Source: Candidatus Nealsonbacteria bacterium
GTDB taxonomy: Bacteria; Patescibacteriota; Minisyncoccia; Minisyncoccales; MHMH01
NCBI GenBank assembly: GCA_043813805.1
Contig: JBDRKR010000025.1
Coordinates: 1 to 62,277 of the forward strand
DNA: 62,277 nucleotides
Reading direction: 5' to 3'
Positions 4,350-42,567 of this stretch are shown here, piece after piece; position 1 is the stretch's first letter, and each line of letters begins with the position of its first letter. The notes under the pieces are model-generated. The model was not told the origin of the DNA. It was given only the letters and a program-made list of their open reading frames with translations, and searched no databases. The position numbers were made by a program, and so were the translations under genes.

Positions 4350-5402
4350 TTATTTGGGCGGTTCCAAATATTCGGTTTCAGTCAAAACCTCTCTTAATTC
4401 ATCGAGGTTTTCTAACACCAGGCCCGCGCCTCGGGCTACGGCCGTCACCGGATCTTCAACGATGCGGGTGGGAATTTTTGTTTCTTTGGTGATCAAAATA
4501 TCGATACCGTTAAGCAGGCTGCCGCCGCCCACGAGCGATATGCCGTTTCTCATCACATCCGATAAAAGCTCGGGCGGCGTTTCTTCCACCGCAGTTTTGA
4601 TGGTATTGACGATTTGCTTGATTGACTTTGACATGGCCTGGGCAATGCTGTTTTCGGAAACTAAAATTTCTTCCGGCAAACCCGTCACTAAGTTTCTCCC
4701 CCTCATCGGCATTTCCTTTTTTCCTTTCATGGGAAAGGCGCAACCAATCCCGATTTTAATTTCCTCAGCGGTCCTCTCTCCGATGAGAAGCTTGTATTCC
4801 TCTTGCGCGAACTGAATAATATCTTCATTAAGCTTGTCTCCGGCGATTCTCAGGCTTTTGGCTAAAACAATCCCTCCCAAAGAAATGACCACCACCTGAG
4901 TCGTGCCGCCGCCGATATCAACCACAAAGTTTCCTCCCGCTTCCTGAACGGCTAATCTCGCCCCAATGGCAGCCGCCATCGGCTGCTCAATCAGATAGAC
5001 TTCGCTCGCCCCTGCCGATAATCCCGCATCCCTGACTGATTTTTTTTCAACCTCCGTCACTTCGCAAGGCACTCCGATGATAACGCGAGGCCTGGGTTTG
5101 AAAAAGAATTTTCTTTGCTGAACTTTTTCAATAAAATAACGCAGCATCTGCTCGGTTACCTCAAAGTCGGAAATCACGCCGTTTACCAAAGGACGCGTAG
5201 CCACAATATGGGCCGGGGTTCTCCCGACCATCTTTTTAGCCTCATCTCCGATGGCTAAAACCTGTCCGGTTTTTTGATTGATGGCCACGACCGAAGGTTC
5301 AAAAATAACAATTCCCCGCCCTCTTAAATAAACGAGGGTTGTGGCGGTCCCCAAATCAATGGCAATATCCTGGAAAAAATGCGAAAAAAATTTATTAAAC
5401 AT
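4350..5402 (-). CDS. mreB: rod-shape/actin-like protein MreB
   Basis: 350 aa with actin-fold motifs DLGTATT and DIGGGTT. Confidence 0.9.
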   Translation of the reverse strand: MFNKFFSHFFQDIAIDLGTATTLVYLRGRGIVIFEPSVVAINQKTGQVLAIGDEAKKMVGRTPAHIVATRPLVNGVISDFEVTEQMLRYFIEKVQQRKFFFKPRPRVIIGVPCEVTEVEKKSVRDAGLSAGASEVYLIEQPMAAAIGARLAVQEAGGNFVVDIGGGTTQVVVISLGGIVLAKSLRIAGDKLNEDIIQFAQEEYKLLIGERTAEEIKIGIGCAFPMKGKKEMPMRGRNLVTGLPEEILVSENSIAQAMSKSIKQIVNTIKTAVEETPPELLSDVMRNGISLVGGGSLLNGIDILITKETKIPTRIVEDPVTAVARGAGLVLENLDELREVLTETEYLEPPK

Positions 5403-8388: not shown

Positions 8389-9195
8389 TTATAATTCCAG
8401 CATCAATATCTCTAAAGCAAGACGCTTATTCACGTTGGTCGTTGAAATCAAAAAACTGATGTTTTGAATGGCCTTAAGAATTTTCCTTAACTTCGCCACG
8501 GAGTAATCGCCGGATTTGCCGTTAATGACAGACAGAAGCACTTCTCGAAAATAGCTTAGCCAAATATCCAAGAGCCCTTTCAAATCGGGCGAATCTTCAG
8601 CCAGAGATTTGATATATTGAAAACGCGAAAGCAAATTTTGGCCGCTCAATCTGATAATTTCATCTATCGCCTCTTTTTCTTCCTTGCTTTTTTCGCGAGC
8701 CGCCGGAGAATAAAACCTCACGCGCTCAACGCGCGATAAAATAGTCGGCAGAAGCATCTCCGGGTATTCGCTAATCAAAATAAATAAGGAATTGCCCTTC
8801 GGCTCTTCCAGCATTTTCAGAAAAGCTGATTGCGCTTCTTGATTTAATAAATGAGCCTTGTCGATAATGGCCGTCTTAAACGGCGCCGAATAGGACTTCA
8901 AAGAAAGATTCTTCTGCAGTTCTCTAATTTGAAAGATTTTTATTTCTTTGCTTTCTTGCGGTTCGACAATAGTCAGGTCGGGGTGGGTGTTCTTTTCAAT
9001 ATCTAAGCAGGCGCGGCAAGTCCTACAGGGCCGAGCCTCAAAACTCTTCGACTCGCAATTCAAAAGCTTGATAAACTCTAGAGCCAAGGTACGCTTACCG
9101 CAAGCGCCCCGACCGTAAAACAACAGAGCATGGGGCGTTTTCCCAAGCTCGGCTGTTTTTTTTAAGAATTGCCACTGTTTTGGATTTCTTAGCAT
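8389..9195 (-). CDS. holB: DNA polymerase III delta-prime subunit
   Basis: 268 aa with P-loop-like GRGACGKRT and zinc module CRTCRAC. Confidence 0.75.
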   Translation of the reverse strand: MLRNPKQWQFLKKTAELGKTPHALLFYGRGACGKRTLALEFIKLLNCESKSFEARPCRTCRACLDIEKNTHPDLTIVEPQESKEIKIFQIRELQKNLSLKSYSAPFKTAIIDKAHLLNQEAQSAFLKMLEEPKGNSLFILISEYPEMLLPTILSRVERVRFYSPAAREKSKEEKEAIDEIIRLSGQNLLSRFQYIKSLAEDSPDLKGLLDIWLSYFREVLLSVINGKSGDYSVAKLRKILKAIQNISFLISTTNVNKRLALEILMLEL

Positions 9196-10202
9196 TACCT
9201 CTTGGCCATTATGCTCTTTTTGTAAACACTGAGATTTTCCAAGACAACGCCCGTACCCTTAGCCACGCACAGCATCGGCTCATCGGCGATGAAACAGGGC
9301 ACTCCCGTTTCTTTAGCAATCAATTTATCGATGTTATTCAATAAAGCCCCGCCGCCGGAAATCACCATGCCTTTATCCATTACATCAGAAGAAAGCTCCG
9401 GAGGCGTATCTCTCAAAACCTGTTTAATGGTATGGATAATCTCAGCTAAGATTTCCGAGATGGCTTCGCAAACTTCATTGGAAGAAATCTTGATCGTCTT
9501 AGGAAGCCCCGAAACCATGTCCCTGCCCCGGACACTCAATATTTTTTCTTCTTTCTCGGGCATAGCCGTGCCGATTTTAATTTTAACATCTTCGGTCGTC
9601 TGTTCGCCCAAGGCCACGTTGTGCTTATCTTTAATGTATTCCCCGATGGCCCTGTCCATTTTATCGCCCGCCACTCTGACAGAACTCGAAGTCACAATGC
9701 CTCCAAGCGAAATTACGGCAACTTCCGAAGTCCCGCCGCCGATATCCACGATCAAATTGCCGGAGCAGGCGTTAATGGGAATGCCTGCGCCAATGGCCGC
9801 CAAAATCGGCTCTTTGACGACGTATGCTTCTTTCGCCCCGGCGTTGATGGCTGCTTCTAAAACCGCTCTTTTTTCGGTACTTGTTATGCCGGCCGGCACG
9901 GAAATCATCAATTCCGGTTTGAAAAACCTGAAAGGACCTGTGGTTTTTTCAATAAGATGCCTGATCATCGCTTGCGTCACCCGAAAATCGGCGATAACGC
10001 CGTCTTTCATCGGCCGATAAACCCTGATCGTGTCAGGGGTTTTGCCGATCATTTCCTTGGCCGCTTCTCCAATGGCTAAAATCTTATTTTCCTGCAAAGA
10101 TACGGCCACGACCGAAGGCTCCATTAAAACCACTCCTTTTTTAGGAACGAAAACCAAAGAATTACATGTGCCCAAATCAATGCCGATTTTTCTGACAAAC
10201 AT
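9195..10202 (-). CDS. mreB: second MreB-family actin-like protein
   Basis: 335 aa with DLGTCNS and DIGGGTSEVAV. Confidence 0.9.
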   Translation of the reverse strand: MFVRKIGIDLGTCNSLVFVPKKGVVLMEPSVVAVSLQENKILAIGEAAKEMIGKTPDTIRVYRPMKDGVIADFRVTQAMIRHLIEKTTGPFRFFKPELMISVPAGITSTEKRAVLEAAINAGAKEAYVVKEPILAAIGAGIPINACSGNLIVDIGGGTSEVAVISLGGIVTSSSVRVAGDKMDRAIGEYIKDKHNVALGEQTTEDVKIKIGTAMPEKEEKILSVRGRDMVSGLPKTIKISSNEVCEAISEILAEIIHTIKQVLRDTPPELSSDVMDKGMVISGGGALLNNIDKLIAKETGVPCFIADEPMLCVAKGTGVVLENLSVYKKSIMAKR

Positions 10203-11475: not shown

Positions 11476-11531
11476 GGCTTTATTATATCTCTTAATATCT
11501 TATCTCAAAATCACCCTTTTAGCAACCGCAA

Positions 11532-11579
11532 AAATGAAAGAGGCTAAACCTCTTTCATCGTTCATTGAGGTTTAGCCTC
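11532..11579. repeat. palindromic terminator-like repeat, copy 1 (compound)
   Basis: aaatgaaagaggctaaacctctttcat plus the inverted partner gaggtttagcctc. Confidence 0.8.
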
Positions 11580-11597
11580 GGCCATTTAAACTTCGAT

Positions 11598-11632
11598 AAA
11601 ACATAAAAGGCGTTCGTTTTCACGAACGCCTT
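11598..11632 (-). terminator. rho-independent terminator
   Basis: 10-bp stem AAGGCGTTCG/CGAACGCCTT followed by TTTTATGTTTTAT on the minus strand. Confidence 0.7.
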
Positions 11633-11651
11633 CTTTAATTACCCCTAAACA

Positions 11652-12308
11652 CTAAGGAGCTAATGCTTTCTTTCTTACTCCTGCGATATGGAATTCAGCG
11701 CTTTGTCCGGTAGCTTTTTCAAATTGCCGATAAAGAGCGATGGCTTCCAGATATTCGTCCATCGCCTCCCGATTCCGGCCCAACTCTTTCAGGGCGTCAG
11801 CTTTATTCTGTTTGGCATGACCGGCTGTCCGATAGTCGCCTTTGAGCAAAGCCTTTTCGTAGACCTTCTCGCAGACCTCCACGCTCCCCTTAAAATCTTT
11901 CGCCCAGCGAAAGAGAATGCTTCGGGTGTTCCAAACCGATGGTTCCTCCGGGAATTCCTTGATGGCTTTATCGCTGATTCTCCAGGCCTCTTCCTGCTCT
12001 TCCAAAATCCAAAGCGACAAAGGTAGGCCATTTAAAATCGAAATTTTCTTCTTACTGTCAGAAGTTCGATCCAGGGCTTGCTTAAAAGCCTCTTTCGACA
12101 TTTGGAGACCGATCTGCTTATCATGAAGACCCTTCGTGCCGATATAATACCAATTCCATCCTCTCAACCGACAAGCCTCGGCAATCTCTTCGTCGGTGGT
12201 TAAGCTACTTTCATTAAGATCGATGAGAGAATTCGAATCCCGCCATTTCCCCTCATCGTACAGTTTTTGAGCTTCCGCTAAGACCTTTCCAATATCTACC
12301 GTTGCCAT
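11652..12308 (-). CDS. hypothetical helical-repeat (TPR-like) protein
   Basis: 218 aa with repeated amphipathic helix pairs. SD GAGGAGG lies 7 nt upstream. Confidence 0.55.
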   Translation of the reverse strand: MATVDIGKVLAEAQKLYDEGKWRDSNSLIDLNESSLTTDEEIAEACRLRGWNWYYIGTKGLHDKQIGLQMSKEAFKQALDRTSDSKKKISILNGLPLSLWILEEQEEAWRISDKAIKEFPEEPSVWNTRSILFRWAKDFKGSVEVCEKVYEKALLKGDYRTAGHAKQNKADALKELGRNREAMDEYLEAIALYRQFEKATGQSAEFHIAGVRKKALAP

Positions 12309-12320
12309 CGCGACGCCTCC

Positions 12321-12530
12321 TCAATCCTTTTTGATTTCAACGACTCTGAATTTCCGACCGCAATTCCTGCACAAGTAATCTTTTTTAACCTCGGTCCCCA
12401 GATAGGTACGGCCCACTCCGCCGCCTTCCGTATCAAAACCGAACTGCTCGTCTTCCATTTTACCTTGGAACTCTACATTCTTGCTACCGCAAGAATCACA
12501 CTCCACCCTTTCCTCTTTTTGTATTACCAT
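12321..12530 (-). CDS. small zinc-ribbon protein
   Basis: 69 aa counted from Met20 of ORF 12321-12587. Two CxxC pairs (CDSCGS, CRNCGR). SD GGAGGTG lies upstream. Confidence 0.6.
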   Translation of the reverse strand: MVIQKEERVECDSCGSKNVEFQGKMEDEQFGFDTEGGGVGRTYLGTEVKKDYLCRNCGRKFRVVEIKKD

Positions 12531-12566
12531 CTCGACAACACCTCCATATTTAATTTTCAATGAATT

Positions 12567-12595
12567 ATCATAGCAGATTGATTTCAAGTTGTCAA
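12567..12595 (-). promoter_or_regulatory. promoter TTGACA-17-TATGAT
   Basis: -35 at 12590-12595, inside the left 21-bp duplication. -10 at 12567-12572. Confidence 0.55.
12575..12595. repeat. 21-bp direct duplication, left copy
   Basis: agattgatttcaagttgtcaa. 19 of 21 positions match 13356-13376. Confidence 0.8.
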
Positions 12596-12605
12596 CTATC
12601 GATAT

Positions 12606-12627
12606 AATCGACGTCGGACGTCCATTA
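12606..12627. repeat. REP1 palindrome copy
   Basis: aatcgacgtcggacgtccatta. Confidence 0.8.
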
Positions 12628-12628
12628 T

Positions 12629-13309
12629 TTATTCTAATTTAAAACCTTTAAGAGATTCGATATTTTTAGCATAATAACTCAGCCAATTTGTAAAAAATTC
12701 TCTGTATTCTTCCGAATTCTTAAAAAATCTAGCCATAAAGTCTTTATCTATCAGTGATGGGAAATTTTTAATCCCCCACCAATCTAAGTGGCTAGACCAA
12801 CGATATTGTTCTAAGAATCTCAAGGCATTTTGAATTTCTAAATTGGTTAAACCTTTTTCTTTCCAGTCGGGCTTCCATAAATCTAAAGGATTGGAGTGGA
12901 TATAACAAATTAACTGAATAGCTTGGGTGTCGTCCATTACTTGTACCTTTTTATATTTCCCCTGAAACAACGTTCCGTTCCTTTTATATTTAACATTAAA
13001 AAACTTAGCAAATCCGCCTCCGAATTTTTTATGAAAATTCGCGAGACCATTATCTGGAATAGGAGATGAAAATAAATGATAATGATTAGGCATCAAGCAC
13101 CAAACAAATAAATTCAACAGATTTTCTCTGGTCTTATTTAAATTAATCGACGTCAGACGTCCATTAATTCGCTGTTTGAGATTAAATACAGCATTACTGT
13201 CATTAAACTCATAAAGATCGTGAACACCACGAAAATAATCTCCTTCTTCTATAAATATTTTTCTTTTGTCTGTTCCTCGATTATAACTGTGATAAAACAA
13301 GCTTTCCAT
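12629..13309 (-). CDS. REP-associated tyrosine transposase (IS200-like Y1, HUH)
   Basis: 226 aa with HUH motif MPNHYHLF and catalytic Tyr region CYIHSNP. The -10 TGGTATAAT lies 8 nt upstream of the ATG. Confidence 0.8.
   Translation of the reverse strand: MESLFYHSYNRGTDKRKIFIEEGDYFRGVHDLYEFNDSNAVFNLKQRINGRLTSINLNKTRENLLNLFVWCLMPNHYHLFSSPIPDNGLANFHKKFGGGFAKFFNVKYKRNGTLFQGKYKKVQVMDDTQAIQLICYIHSNPLDLWKPDWKEKGLTNLEIQNALRFLEQYRWSSHLDWWGIKNFPSLIDKDFMARFFKNSEEYREFFTNWLSYYAKNIESLKGFKLE
13145..13166. repeat. REP1 copy inside the transposase CDS
   Basis: aatcgacgtcagacgtccatta, translated in frame as INGRLTSI. Confidence 0.75.
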
Positions 13310-13331
13310 ATTTTTAAATTATACCACAAAC

Positions 13332-13353
13332 AATCGACGTCGGACGTCGATTA
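13332..13353. repeat. REP1 palindrome copy
   Basis: aatcgacgtcggacgtcgatta, with 10-bp arms around a central g. Confidence 0.8.
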
Positions 13354-13355
13354 AT

Positions 13356-13376
13356 AGATTGATTTCAAAATGTCAA
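13356..13376. repeat. 21-bp direct duplication, right copy
   Basis: agattgatttcaaaatgtcaa. Confidence 0.8.
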
Positions 13377-13387
13377 TGAGATATGAT
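13359..13387 (+). promoter_or_regulatory. promoter TTGATT-17-TATGAT
   Basis: -35 lies inside the right duplication. The -10 lies 9 nt upstream of the ATG at 13397. Confidence 0.5.
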
Positions 13388-13396
13388 GGATAAAAC

Positions 13397-14152
13397 ATGA
13401 CTAAAAAAACAAGGACAATCCTCTTCGCTATCTGCGTTTTTTTGTTTTCGCTGACGGCCCCGTCAGTCATTTTTTATTCTCAAGGATACCGCTTTGATTT
13501 TGAAACAAGAAAAATCGTGCAAACCGGCGGTCTTTATTTTAAAGTGACGCCCAGGTCCGCTCAAGTGTATTTGAATGGCAAGCTAATAGAAACGACGTCT
13601 ATTTTTACGAGTTCATCTCTCGTCGAAAACCTGTTACCCAAAACATATTATGTTGAAATAAAAAAAGACGGTTTTAATTCTTGGCAAAAAAACATGGAAG
13701 TCAAAGAGAGGCAGGTCACTGAAGCTAAAAATATTACTTTGATTCCTCAAAACATTAATTTCGTCAAAAGCATAGAAACTCCCCTGCCCAAATACCTCGC
13801 CAATGCCACCTCTTCTGACGGCAATAAAGTTGTAAAATATGACGACCACGAAATTTGGATATCTTTCCCCGAGGAAGAGAAAGATATTTTTCTAATCCGC
13901 TTTTCGGAAAAAATCTGCCAAGTTTTTTGGCTCAACGATTATTATCTGATTTTTAACGTCGGTGGAAAAATAAACCTTGATTTCTCGCCCTGCTCAAAAT
14001 TAAAAGTCGCCGAAATCGACGACCGTGACAGATTAAACGTTATTGATATTGCGGAGTTTAAAACTCCTGAAATCTTTTGGGACAACGCCAACGGCAAGCT
14101 TTATGTTTCGAGCGAAAACACTCTCTATGTTTCAGAAGGGTTACTTCCCTAG
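13397..14152 (+). CDS. membrane-anchored PEGA-domain protein
   Basis: 251 aa with an N-terminal TM helix and a PEGA-like segment YFKVTPRSAQVYLNGK...YYVEIKKDGF. Confidence 0.6.
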   Translation: MTKKTRTILFAICVFLFSLTAPSVIFYSQGYRFDFETRKIVQTGGLYFKVTPRSAQVYLNGKLIETTSIFTSSSLVENLLPKTYYVEIKKDGFNSWQKNMEVKERQVTEAKNITLIPQNINFVKSIETPLPKYLANATSSDGNKVVKYDDHEIWISFPEEEKDIFLIRFSEKICQVFWLNDYYLIFNVGGKINLDFSPCSKLKVAEIDDRDRLNVIDIAEFKTPEIFWDNANGKLYVSSENTLYVSEGLLP

Positions 14153-39226: not shown

Positions 39227-39270
39227 GGATTTACGAAATCCACTCTAATTTGAGAGGATTTCGTAAATCC
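39227..39270. repeat. REP2 palindromes, inverted pair
   Basis: ggatttacgaaatcc (39227-39241) and ggatttcgtaaatcc (39256-39270). Confidence 0.8.
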
Positions 39271-39286
39271 CAAATATCCGACGTAC

Positions 39287-39308
39287 AATCGATGTCGGAC
39301 ATCCATTA
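39287..39308. repeat. degenerate REP1 copy
   Basis: aatcgatgtcggacatccatta. 20 of 22 positions match 12606-12627. Confidence 0.7.
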
Positions 39309-40540: not shown

Positions 40541-40561
40541 GTTGGATTTCGTAAATCCAAC
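40541..40561. repeat. REP2 palindrome
   Basis: gttggatttcgtaaatccaac. Confidence 0.8.
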
Positions 40562-42514: not shown

Positions 42515-42558
42515 GTGGATTTACGAAATCCAACATATATGATGGGATTTCGTAAATC
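42515..42558. repeat. REP2 palindromes (two copies)
   Basis: gtggatttacgaaatccaac (42515-42534) and gggatttcgtaaatc (42544-42558). Confidence 0.8.
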
Positions 42559-42567
42559 AATTAAGGT

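What the first reader, a model, noticed from the sequence alone, without database searches (positions are those of the whole stretch)
12575..13376. The RAYT cassette is flanked by a 21-bp duplication that splits a bidirectional promoter
An IS200-like Y1 transposase (HUH motif NHYH, Tyr in YIHSNP) is flanked by REP1 palindromes (12606-12627 and 13332-13353). Outside those lie 21-bp direct repeats, agattgatttcaaNNtgtcaa (12575-12595 and 13356-13376, 19 of 21 identical). The 21-mer carries TTGATT on the plus strand and TTGACA on the minus strand, which are back-to-back -35 boxes. After duplication, the left copy provides the -35 for the Zn-ribbon/TPR operon (17 nt from TATGAT). The right copy provides the -35 for the PEGA gene (17 nt from TATGAT). 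IS200/IS605 and RAYT elements are not known to make target duplications, so a 21-bp duplication is unexpected. It suggests a different insertion route, or selection to keep both promoters.
Basis: partly seen in the sequence, partly recalled or inferred. Interest (0 to 1): 0.65.

Follow-up and report, generated by a model that had tools for sequence, protein, structure and literature searches.

The report
RAYT cassette splitting a duplicated divergent promoter
A small transposase-like gene with its hairpin repeats sits in the middle of a compact two-way promoter in a Nealsonbacteria (CPR) genome, and the 21-bp promoter core is present on both sides so both neighbouring genes keep a promoter; the duplication appears tied to this site and to selection, not to the transposase's chemistry.

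Summary
AGATTGATTTCAA(GT/AA)TGTCAA occurs at 12575-12595 and 13356-13376 (19/21) and nowhere else in the window. The two copies bracket a REP-RAYT-REP cassette.

The 21-mer is the core of a divergent promoter conserved upstream of the PEGA gene in about 40 related Nealsonbacteria loci. The closest relatives (L086, L077, L081) have one core and no RAYT. L086 reads exactly as window left flank + one 21-mer + window right flank, between the Zn-ribbon and PEGA genes.

In occupied relatives the left copy keeps only the leftward promoter parts and the right copy only the rightward parts. This supports the promoter reading.

The duplication is unlikely to be a transposase footprint:
- Its length varies between lineages, from 21 to about 70 bp.
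- A non-RAYT (PaaX-like) hairpin-flanked cassette sits in the same duplicated core in another clade.
- Paralogous RAYTs at a second locus lack flanking repeats.
- The whole allele, core to core, has moved between distant lineages (RAYT 91% identical, ribosomal proteins 57-69%).

How the duplication first arose is unresolved.

Separately, every RAYT of this family carries three cognate palindromes, one of them inside the ORF, with compensatory changes across loci.

The parts
11652..12308 (-). TPR-repeat protein gene, second gene of the leftward operon
   Evidence: ORF list. Weak Pfam TPR hits, below cut-off. Orthologues 60-72% identical in L077, L086, L081 and L044.
12321..12530 (-). Zn-ribbon protein gene, first gene of the leftward operon. 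Likely start is the ATG at 12530 with GGAGGTG 8 nt upstream.
   Evidence: Orthologue 68% identical in the empty-site locus L086. The leader is conserved with relatives (alignment A1).
12567..12572 (-). -10 box TATGAT of the leftward promoter, preceded by TG
   Evidence: The equivalent TAAGAT/TAGCA... element is conserved in relatives.
12575..12595 (.). Left copy of the 21-bp promoter core. It carries TTGACA on the minus strand at 12595-12590.
   Evidence: PWM scores: leftward part 22.9, rightward part -0.1.
12606..12626 (.). REP palindrome just downstream of the RAYT stop codon
   Evidence: Folds as a DNA hairpin at -4.8 kcal/mol.
12629..13309 (-). RAYT-like Y1 HUH transposase gene, 226 aa
   Evidence: Pfam Y1_Tnp above cut-off. 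NCBIfam REP_Tyr_transpos 36.9 bits, below the cut-off of 80. 1600 homologues, mostly Nealsonbacteria.
13145..13165 (.). Third REP palindrome, inside the RAYT ORF. It encodes INGRLTSIN, about aa 48-56.
   Evidence: DNA hairpin -6.7 kcal/mol, z = -4.7. Conserved position with compensatory changes in 17 loci. Also present in a 35%-identical paralogue.
13318..13326 (-). Extended -10 (TGGTATAAT on the minus strand), 8 nt before the RAYT ATG. Likely the gene's own promoter, giving a nearly leaderless mRNA.
   Evidence: Read from the sequence. TGnTATAAT / TGTTATCAT occurs at the same place in L032, L037 and L038. The promoter function is inferred.
13332..13352 (.). REP palindrome upstream of RAYT (perfect 10+1+10)
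   Evidence: DNA hairpin -8.7 kcal/mol, z = -4.7.
13356..13376 (.). Right copy of the 21-bp promoter core. It carries TTGATT on the plus strand at 13359-13364. It is identical to the single core of the empty allele L077.
   Evidence: PWM scores: rightward part 26.7, leftward part 12.5.
13382..13387 (+). -10 box TATGAT of the rightward (PEGA) promoter, 9 nt before the ATG
   Evidence: Conserved in relatives.
13397..14152 (+). PEGA-domain protein gene, driven by the right promoter copy
   Evidence: Pfam PEGA 22 bits, cut-off 20.8. Syntenic in more than 100 loci.

Best explanation
The MurA-side genes (here Zn-ribbon and TPR) and the PEGA gene of Nealsonbacteria are transcribed from one compact divergent promoter. 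Its two -35 boxes cross each other inside a roughly 21-bp core (plus-strand TTGATT on the left, minus-strand TTGACA on the right), and the two -10 boxes lie outside the core.

In this genome a 760-bp cassette lies inside that core, and the core is present on both sides of it. The cassette consists of REP, a RAYT gene with its own extended -10, and a second REP.
- The left copy plus the old left -10 still drives the Zn-ribbon/TPR operon.
- The right copy plus the old right -10 still drives PEGA.
- The right copy's TTGACA may also feed RAYT.

An insertion into this core without a duplication would destroy at least one promoter, so only duplicated arrangements persist.

The duplication is a property of the site and the allele. 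It is not a footprint of Y1/HUH transposition. Once formed, the whole block (core, cassette, core) is inherited. It can be lost by recombination between the repeats. It is also passed between lineages by homologous recombination through the conserved leader/promoter on one side and the promoter/PEGA 5' end on the other.

Shown: the repeat, the empty alleles, promoter conservation, subfunctionalisation of the two copies, lateral movement of the block, and absence of repeats at the other RAYT locus.

Inferred: promoter activity (no TSS data), the selective filter, and recombination as the transfer route. How the first duplication arose is unresolved. Candidates are a short tandem duplication that created a permissive landing pad, break repair, or integration of a circle carrying one core.
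For: Repeat and significance.

Empty alleles in the nearest relatives (MreB 93-94% identical):
- L086 has TPR, Zn-ribbon, then one core ('tcatagcaGATTGATTTTAAAATGTCAAtgagatatgatgg'), then PEGA.
- L077 and L081 also have one core.

The core is specific to this position. At up to 1 mismatch it occurs only upstream of PEGA, or to the left of a cassette that lies upstream of PEGA, in about 547 kb of related loci.

Promoter geometry.

Subfunctionalisation:
- Left copies keep the left -10 and TGTCAA but lose TTGATT (L085, L158).
- Right copies keep TTGATT and the right -10 but lose TGTCAA (L080, L084, L093, L157).

Site-linked, not enzyme-linked:
- A PaaX_M cassette lies between duplicated cores in L041, L097 and L099. 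L039 and L098 have two cores with only a hairpin between them. The sister locus L042 has one core.
- RAYTs at locus B show no flanking repeat (p 0.25-0.55, against p < 0.005 for the window).
- The extent of the duplication varies between lineages.

Lateral movement of the block:
- L080 versus L093: RAYT 91% aa identical, but RpsI 69%, RplM 57%, PEGA 67%.
- The 84-100% nt identity block starts at the left -10/core and ends about 20 nt after the right -10.
- RAYT presence is patchy on the species tree.

IS200/IS605 elements are not known to make larger target duplications (PMC2817692).
Against: - No transcription start data exist for either gene; no RNA runs could be listed. Both promoters are therefore predictions, although they are conserved.
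- In the window the cassette fits very tightly between the cores (10 nt and 3 nt of spacer). That is what a true target duplication looks like.
- Within a genome the left and right cores share clade-specific spacer bases (2-3 differences within a genome against 4-6 between clades). This points to repeated young duplications or to conversion, and simple selection does not explain it.
- Homologous recombination over arms of a few tens of bp is inefficient.
- The locus-B insertions may simply be too old for repeats to be visible.
- The NJ trees are poorly resolved.
Confidence: 0.6

Rival explanations
1. This is a genuine target-site duplication. The RAYT/IS200-like element, or a helper, inserts by staggered cleavage of this promoter and duplicates about 21 bp at each insertion.
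For: - The direct repeats abut the cassette, and empty alleles have exactly one copy.
- At least five different RAYT/REP types occupy the same site in different lineages.
- Left and right copies resemble the local clade's promoter.
Against: - The HUH Y1 chemistry of IS200/IS605 makes no such duplication (PMC2817692).
- The duplicated length is not fixed: 21 bp, at least 26 bp, about 70 bp.
- A non-transposase PaaX cassette shows the same pattern.
- RAYTs at locus B have no flanking repeats.
- The L080-type allele, with its degenerate right core, was clearly copied as a whole block and not re-created.
Confidence: 0.1
2. The core acts as an attachment site. A circular cassette carrying one core copy integrates by site-specific or short-homology recombination with the chromosomal core (Campbell type). 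This gives attL/attR-like repeats, and excision restores the empty site. It would amount to an integron-like landing site for hairpin-flanked cassettes.
For: - Different cassettes (several RAYT types, PaaX) lie between duplicated cores at one site.
- The laterally shared block is bounded by the cores.
- Empty, occupied and scar states all occur within single clades.
Against: - No integrase or recombinase other than the Y1 protein lies in or next to the cassette.
- The shared L080/L093 block contains both cores plus the right -10, not one core.
- The core does not fold as a hairpin, unlike the REPs.
- No circle or empty-site joint was seen in the reads, although depth was only about 3x.
Confidence: 0.15
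3. One ancient insertion and duplication occurred in the ancestor of these Nealsonbacteria. It was then inherited strictly vertically with many precise losses, and both copies were kept by purifying selection.
For: - RAYT-like genes lie at the same site across deep clades, with divergence similar to MurA (WIN versus L038: RAYT 72%, MurA 71%).
- Subfunctionalised copies imply long residence.
- RAYTs are typically inherited vertically (PMC5581495).
Against: - Within the window's own clade (MreB 93-94% identical), three RAYT types only 65-77% identical occupy the site, while four sister lineages are empty.
- L080 and L093 RAYTs are 91% identical against 57-69% for ribosomal proteins.
- Left and right copies share clade-specific spacers.
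Confidence: 0.12
4. The similarity is due to chance, or the 21-mer is a common intergenic or regulatory motif unrelated to the cassette.
For: The region is AT-rich, and -35-like hexamers are common.
Against: - Expected 0.07 matches, observed 2; no shuffle reached 2.
- The motif occurs nowhere else in the window or in about 547 kb of related loci, except at this promoter.
Confidence: 0.01

Closest known systems
REP-associated tyrosine transposases (RAYT / TnpA_REP) with flanking REPs (Nunvar 2010; Bertels & Rainey 2011)
   Same: - Y1 HUH protein with HUH and Tyr motifs, plus a C-terminal extension containing RWSS.
- The gene is flanked by cognate palindromes whose stems co-vary with the protein lineage.
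- Dispersed orphan hairpins, including inverted doublets, occur in intergenic DNA. In the window these are the B-type hairpins at 39227/39256, 40544 and 42517/42545.
- Long residence at a fixed chromosomal position.
   Different: - Below the NCBIfam equivalog cut-off (36.9 bits against 80).
- 2-3 paralogues per genome, not a single copy.
- Clear lateral transfer of the cassette between lineages.
- The gene's own REP type is nearly confined to the gene (3 copies plus 1 orphan in 62 kb).
- A third cognate palindrome lies inside the ORF.
- The gene is bracketed by a duplicated promoter core.
- The host is a CPR bacterium. No paper in the held library links RAYTs with CPR.
IS200/IS605 insertion sequences (IS200, IS608, ISDra2)
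   Same: - A small element of about 0.7 kb encoding only a Y1 TnpA, with subterminal hairpins at both ends and no terminal inverted repeats.
- The best PDB sequence match is ISDra2 TnpA (E = 0.03).
   Different: - IS200/IS605 elements make no target duplication and occur as near-identical multicopy elements.
- Here there is a single copy in the window, paralogues are only about 70% identical, there are 21-bp flanking repeats, and the protein is longer (226 aa against about 140).
Bacterial divergent or bidirectional promoters
   Same: Two outward-facing sigma-70-type promoters share one short stretch of DNA.
   Different: In this promoter the two -35 boxes cross within a 21-bp core and the -10 boxes lie outside it. 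The core has been duplicated and the two copies have each specialised for one direction. As far as I recall, described bidirectional promoters share the -10 region; this comparison rests on my own knowledge and was not checked against a paper.
Integron attI/attC cassette insertion next to a resident promoter
   Same: Different hairpin-bearing gene cassettes are found at one promoter-proximal site, and occupied, empty and scar states are all seen.
   Different: - There is no tyrosine-recombinase integrase.
- The cassettes are flanked by two hairpins and by duplicated promoter cores.
- There is no evidence of site-specific recombination.
- The resemblance is only by analogy.

Membership tests
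RAYT (REP-associated tyrosine transposase) | Y1 HUH transposase domain with HUH motif and catalytic Tyr | tested here: met
   Pfam Y1_Tnp 27.1 bits, cut-off 23. PNHYHLF and CYIHSNP align to the HUH and Tyr of ISDra2 TnpA.
RAYT (REP-associated tyrosine transposase) | Scores above the curated family model (NCBIfam NF047646 equivalog) | tested here: not met
   36.9 bits against a cut-off of 80, E = 3e-9. This is a divergent relative.
RAYT (REP-associated tyrosine transposase) | Gene flanked by two cognate REP palindromes | tested here: met
   12606-12626 and 13332-13352. The same layout occurs in 18 related loci, with lineage-specific stems.
RAYT (REP-associated tyrosine transposase) | The cognate REPs/REPINs are dispersed in many copies over the genome | tested here: inconclusive
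   Only 62 kb is available. The gene's own REP type has 3 copies at the gene and 1 diverged orphan. A second hairpin type, cognate to the paralogous locus-B RAYTs, has 5 intergenic copies including two inverted doublets.
RAYT (REP-associated tyrosine transposase) | Single copy per genome with vertical inheritance | tested here: not met
   2-3 paralogues occur in several MAGs. L080/L093 RAYTs are 91% identical against 57-69% for ribosomal proteins.
IS200/IS605 insertion sequence | No target-site duplication; inserted seamlessly next to a short target | tested here: not met
   21-bp direct repeats flank the cassette. I attribute them to the site, not to the element.
IS200/IS605 insertion sequence | Several near-identical copies in a genome (recent transposition) | tested here: not met
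   One copy in the window. Paralogues in related MAGs are about 65-75% identical.
Transposase-made target-site duplication | Fixed duplication length at all insertions of the element family | tested here: not met
   The duplication is 21 bp in the window, at least 26 bp in L038, and about 70 bp in L095/L085. There is none at locus B.
Sigma-70-type divergent promoter | -35 and -10 hexamers with 16-18 nt spacing on each strand | tested here: met
   minus strand 11/12 matches with TG; plus strand 9/12; both spacers are 17 nt.
Sigma-70-type divergent promoter | Conservation of the elements in relatives at the same position | tested here: met
   There are 17 single-copy promoters from RAYT-free loci with high information content at both -35 and both -10 boxes. 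Elements not needed for the outward gene are lost in a direction-specific way in split copies.
Sigma-70-type divergent promoter | Mapped transcription start sites | not testable with these tools
   No RNA run could be listed for this sequence.

The most novel reading that the evidence does not exclude
The crossed -35 core upstream of the PEGA gene may be a dedicated landing site for hairpin-flanked gene cassettes in Nealsonbacteria. Several RAYT types and a PaaX-like gene have been seen there so far. Under this reading, cassettes integrate with duplication of the core and can excise again, in an integron-like, promoter-coupled exchange driven by the Y1 HUH protein or by host recombination. The conserved palindrome inside the RAYT ORF would then be a third functional recognition site, for example for self-regulation or for excision of the gene's 5' part.
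Probability: 0.12. Interest if true: 0.8.

Novelty: new variant of a known kind. Interest (0 to 1): 0.55.

Why it matters
This locus is a clean natural example of how a compact bacterial promoter tolerates an insertion. The shared core is duplicated, and each copy then decays to serve only one direction. The series of alleles recovered here (empty, occupied, degenerate, scar) documents those steps.

The evidence points away from a new transposition chemistry as the origin of the repeat flanking an IS200-like gene. It points instead to the site, to selection on the two promoters, and to recombination.

It extends RAYT/REP-type systems to CPR bacteria, where they behave differently from the proteobacterial model: they are multi-copy, they are exchanged laterally as promoter-bounded blocks, and they carry a cognate palindrome inside the coding sequence. 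That in-ORF palindrome is a testable handle on how these enzymes recognise their hairpins and regulate themselves.

Tried and rejected
- My first motif search used NNN where NN was intended and found nothing. It was repeated correctly.
- An exact 21-mer scan of genome contigs gave only unrelated chance hits, mostly Microcoleus; none came from the PEGA locus of a relative.
- Exact-sequence look-ups of three window proteins found nothing on record.
- Laying public contigs on the region confirmed both occupied junctions. It gave no empty-site joint or circle. Depth was about 3x and the contigs were only about 200 bp, so this says little.
- No RNA runs were available for TSS mapping.
- I considered that the core mimics a REP hairpin and so attracts the enzyme, because several REP types share ATTGA...TCAAT ends with the core. 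The core does not fold better than shuffled sequence (z = 0.3-0.5). The idea is not supported, though it is not excluded for double-stranded recognition.
- I looked for an extension of the window duplication to the right -10 (left copy ...TGTCAActatcGATATAAT, right copy ...TGTCAAtgaGATATGAT). The match is possible, giving up to 34 bp with a 2-bp indel. However, it overlaps the REP and could be chance, so I did not rely on it.
- The NJ trees of RAYT are star-like and cannot give the number of independent insertions.
- The window does not contain the second RAYT locus (next to FtsH), so no within-genome comparison was possible.
Full report
**1. Checking the observation**

12575-12595 reads AGATTGATTTCAAGTTGTCAA and 13356-13376 reads AGATTGATTTCAAAATGTCAA. 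They are 19/21 identical. With up to 3 mismatches allowed they are the only two matches in the 62,277-base window; the expected count is 0.07 and no shuffle reached 2.

They bracket a minus-strand ORF (12629-13309, 226 aa). The ORF scores above the Pfam cut-off for Y1_Tnp. It carries PNHYHLF and CYIHSNP, which align to the HUH motif and catalytic Tyr of ISDra2 TnpA.

The REP palindrome AATCGACGTCnGACGTC(G/C)ATT lies at 12606-12626 and 13332-13352, as reported. A third copy lies at 13145-13165 inside the ORF, and a diverged orphan lies at 39287.

The consensus scan gives TTGACA-17-TATGAT (11/12, with TG) on the minus strand ending at 12567. It gives TTGATT-17-TATGAT on the plus strand ending at 13387. 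Short contigs identical to the window, from three public groundwater and biofilm runs, cross both junctions.

**2. What the 21-mer is**

The window comes from a Candidatus Nealsonbacteria (CPR) genome. The gene order MreB-MurA-[variable]-PEGA-PD(D/E)XK-RpsI-RplM is conserved in more than 100 related loci.

Directly upstream of PEGA, most relatives carry cTTAGCA-GATTGATTTnnnnnnGTCAAT-nAGATAnnAT. On the plus strand this reads TTGATT-N17-TAnnAT. On the minus strand it reads TTGACA-N17-TAAGAT. It is therefore a compact divergent promoter whose two -35 boxes cross inside the 21-bp core, with the -10 boxes outside it.

At up to 1 mismatch the core occurs only at this position in about 547 kb of related DNA. 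The leftward leader, including the ribosome-binding site, is also conserved, whichever gene follows it: Zn-ribbon, TPR or NUDIX-like.

**3. Empty-site alleles**

The nearest relatives by flanking proteins (MreB 93-94% identical, MurA 81-85%) have no RAYT and one core.
- L086 has TPR (72% identical), Zn-ribbon (68%), then 'tcatagcaGATTGATTTTAAAATGTCAAtgagatatgatgg', then PEGA. This is the window's left flank, one 21-mer and the window's right flank.
- L077 and L081 are likewise single-core.

The window's right copy is identical to L077's single core. The left copy differs by the dinucleotide AA>GT in the spacer between the two -35 boxes.

Relative to these alleles, the window has gained 781 bp: a 760-bp cassette plus a second core.

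**4. Evidence that the halves are functional promoters**

In other occupied loci the two copies have decayed in a direction-specific way.
- Left copies always keep the left -10 and TGTCAA, but some have lost TTGATT (L085, L158).
- Right copies always keep TTGATT and the right -10, but several have lost TGTCAA (L080, L084, L093, L157).

This pattern is expected if each copy is maintained only for its outward gene. No RNA data could be found, so promoter activity remains inferred.

**5. Is the repeat a transposition footprint?**

Four results argue against it.
- (a) The duplicated stretch is not constant. It is 21 bp here, at least 26 bp including TAGC(A/C) in L038, and about 70 bp including the leader and ribosome-binding site in L095 and L085. 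In those loci the insert also contains a NUDIX gene or a small ORF.
- (b) In another clade, a 193-aa PaaX_M-domain gene flanked by unrelated hairpins (ctatcgcc...ggcgatag) lies between a left core and a degenerate right core (L041, L097, L099). L039 and L098 keep the two cores with a single hairpin between them. The sister locus L042 has one core.
- (c) Paralogous RAYTs sit at a second conserved locus next to a 633-aa membrane-protein gene that I take, from memory, to be FtsH; this was not tested with any tool. They have cognate hairpins but no significant flanking repeat (p 0.25-0.55, against p < 0.005 for the window).
- (d) HUH Y1 elements are not known to make larger duplications (PMC2817692).

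The duplication therefore goes with the site, not with the enzyme.

**6. History of the cassette**

RAYT presence at the site is patchy on a four-protein NJ tree. Within the window's own clade, WIN and L080 are occupied, whereas L077, L081, L086 and L028 are not.

At least five RAYT/REP types occupy the site in different lineages. The window's RAYT is only 65-72% identical to the others at this site. Its closest relatives are 82% (L157) and 77% (L158) identical.

L080 and L093 RAYTs are 91% identical, although the flanking RpsI, RplM and PEGA are 69%, 57% and 67% identical. The 84-100% nucleotide-identity block begins at the left -10/core and ends about 20 nt after the right -10. The left flanks are unrelated genes.

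The whole core-to-core allele has therefore moved between distant lineages. The most likely route is recombination in the conserved promoter/leader on one side and the promoter/PEGA 5' region on the other.

Left and right cores within a genome differ at 2-3 positions, against 4-6 for same-side copies between clades. This means either that duplications arose more than once, or that the cores travel with the allele or are converted. I cannot distinguish these possibilities.

**7. Most likely mechanism**

An insertion into the crossed -35 core is tolerated only if the core ends up on both sides. Such arrangements are then kept by selection on the Zn-ribbon/TPR (or equivalent) operon and on PEGA, and they spread or are lost by recombination. 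The physical origin of the first duplication is open: a short tandem duplication providing a landing pad, break repair, or integration of a circle carrying one core.

My confidence is as follows:
- about 0.6 in the site/selection/recombination reading;
- about 0.1 in a true transposase-made target duplication;
- about 0.15 in an att-like cassette-integration mechanism;
- about 0.12 in purely vertical descent from one event.

**8. Comparison with known systems**

The protein is a divergent RAYT-like Y1 enzyme. NCBIfam REP_Tyr_transpos scores 36.9 bits against a cut-off of 80, and the best PDB sequence hit is ISDra2 TnpA at E = 0.03.

It has flanking cognate palindromes, as RAYTs do. The window also holds dispersed intergenic hairpins of a second type: GGATTTCGTAAATCC at 39227, 39256, 40544, 42517 and 42545, including two inverted doublets.

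It departs from the proteobacterial RAYT model in copy number, in lateral transfer, and in a feature I found no description of. Every member examined has three cognate palindromes: one at about -50..-20, one inside the ORF at about +140..+165, and one just after the stop codon. This holds for 17 loci at both chromosomal sites plus a 35%-identical paralogue. The stems differ between genomes but match within a gene. RNAalifold on the internal palindrome gives 9 pairs, 7 of them with compensatory double changes. The encoded peptide varies (INGRLTSIN, IDGNRISIN, IEGSPTPLN and others).

No paper in the held library mentions RAYTs together with CPR or Patescibacteria.

**9. Verdict**

I class this as a new variant of a known kind, of moderate interest. 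The in-ORF palindrome and the promoter-bounded cassette exchange are the most promising leads.

Noticed in passing
window 13145-13165; also L080, L084, L093, L085, L038, L095, L032, L157, L158, L073, L070-L076, L140, L151: Every RAYT gene of this family has a third copy of its own palindrome inside the ORF, about nt +140..+165. The stems co-vary with the two flanking copies and differ between genomes. The encoded peptide is variable. 7 of 9 predicted pairs show compensatory changes. The function is unknown.
   Followed up: yes
window 39227-39307, 40544-40558, 42517-42559: Orphan intergenic hairpins. Five copies of GGATTTCGTAAATCC are present, two of them as inverted doublets that look REPIN-like; this is the type cognate to the locus-B RAYTs of relatives. 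One diverged copy of the gene's own REP lies at 39287. No second RAYT gene is in the window.
   Followed up: partly
L041 1975-2740; L097; L099; L039 5874-6000; L098; L042: In another Nealsonbacteria clade the same promoter core is duplicated around a PaaX_M-domain gene flanked by unrelated hairpins. L039 and L098 keep two cores with one hairpin and no gene, which looks like a scar. L042 has a single core.
   Followed up: partly
L157 (Logan contig, RAYT 82% identical to the window's): This is a chimeric cassette. The upstream and in-ORF palindromes are of the window's type. The downstream palindrome and the terminator beyond it are of the locus-B type. Either the two paralogous RAYT loci recombined or the assembly is chimeric.
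   Followed up: partly
L080 887-1722 versus L093 4106-4953: The core-to-core block is 84-100% identical in nucleotides between two lineages whose ribosomal proteins are only 57-69% identical. The boundaries are sharp at the left -10/core and about 20 nt past the right -10.
   Followed up: yes
window 11476-13396 and the MurA-PEGA interval of L028-L156: The interval between MurA and PEGA is a variable zone. Unrelated minus-strand genes (Zn-ribbon, TPR, two NUDIX-like types, small ORFs, PaaX, RAYT) follow the same conserved promoter-plus-leader module. In some genomes that module occurs twice, leader included.
   Followed up: partly
window 13382-13399 and 13307-13326: Both PEGA and RAYT have their predicted -10 box only 9 and 8 nt before the ATG, with no Shine-Dalgarno sequence. 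This suggests leaderless or nearly leaderless mRNAs. The same spacing is seen in relatives.
   Followed up: no
window 12578-12608: The left core's TTGATT is followed after 19 nt by TATAAT, which overlaps the start of the REP. This is a weak plus-strand promoter-like site that would read antisense into the 3' end of RAYT.
   Followed up: no
L028 / L079 5870-6000: One of the closest relatives (MreB 94% identical) has lost the conserved core upstream of PEGA. It has a different promoter-like site (TTGGCA-17-TAAGAT) preceded by the hairpin gaaagaggccgaacctctttc, and about 2 kb of other genes after MurA.
   Followed up: no
window 4404-5378: A second MreB paralogue, 47% identical to the one at 9195-10202, lies a few kb upstream. 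Several relatives also have two copies.
   Followed up: no
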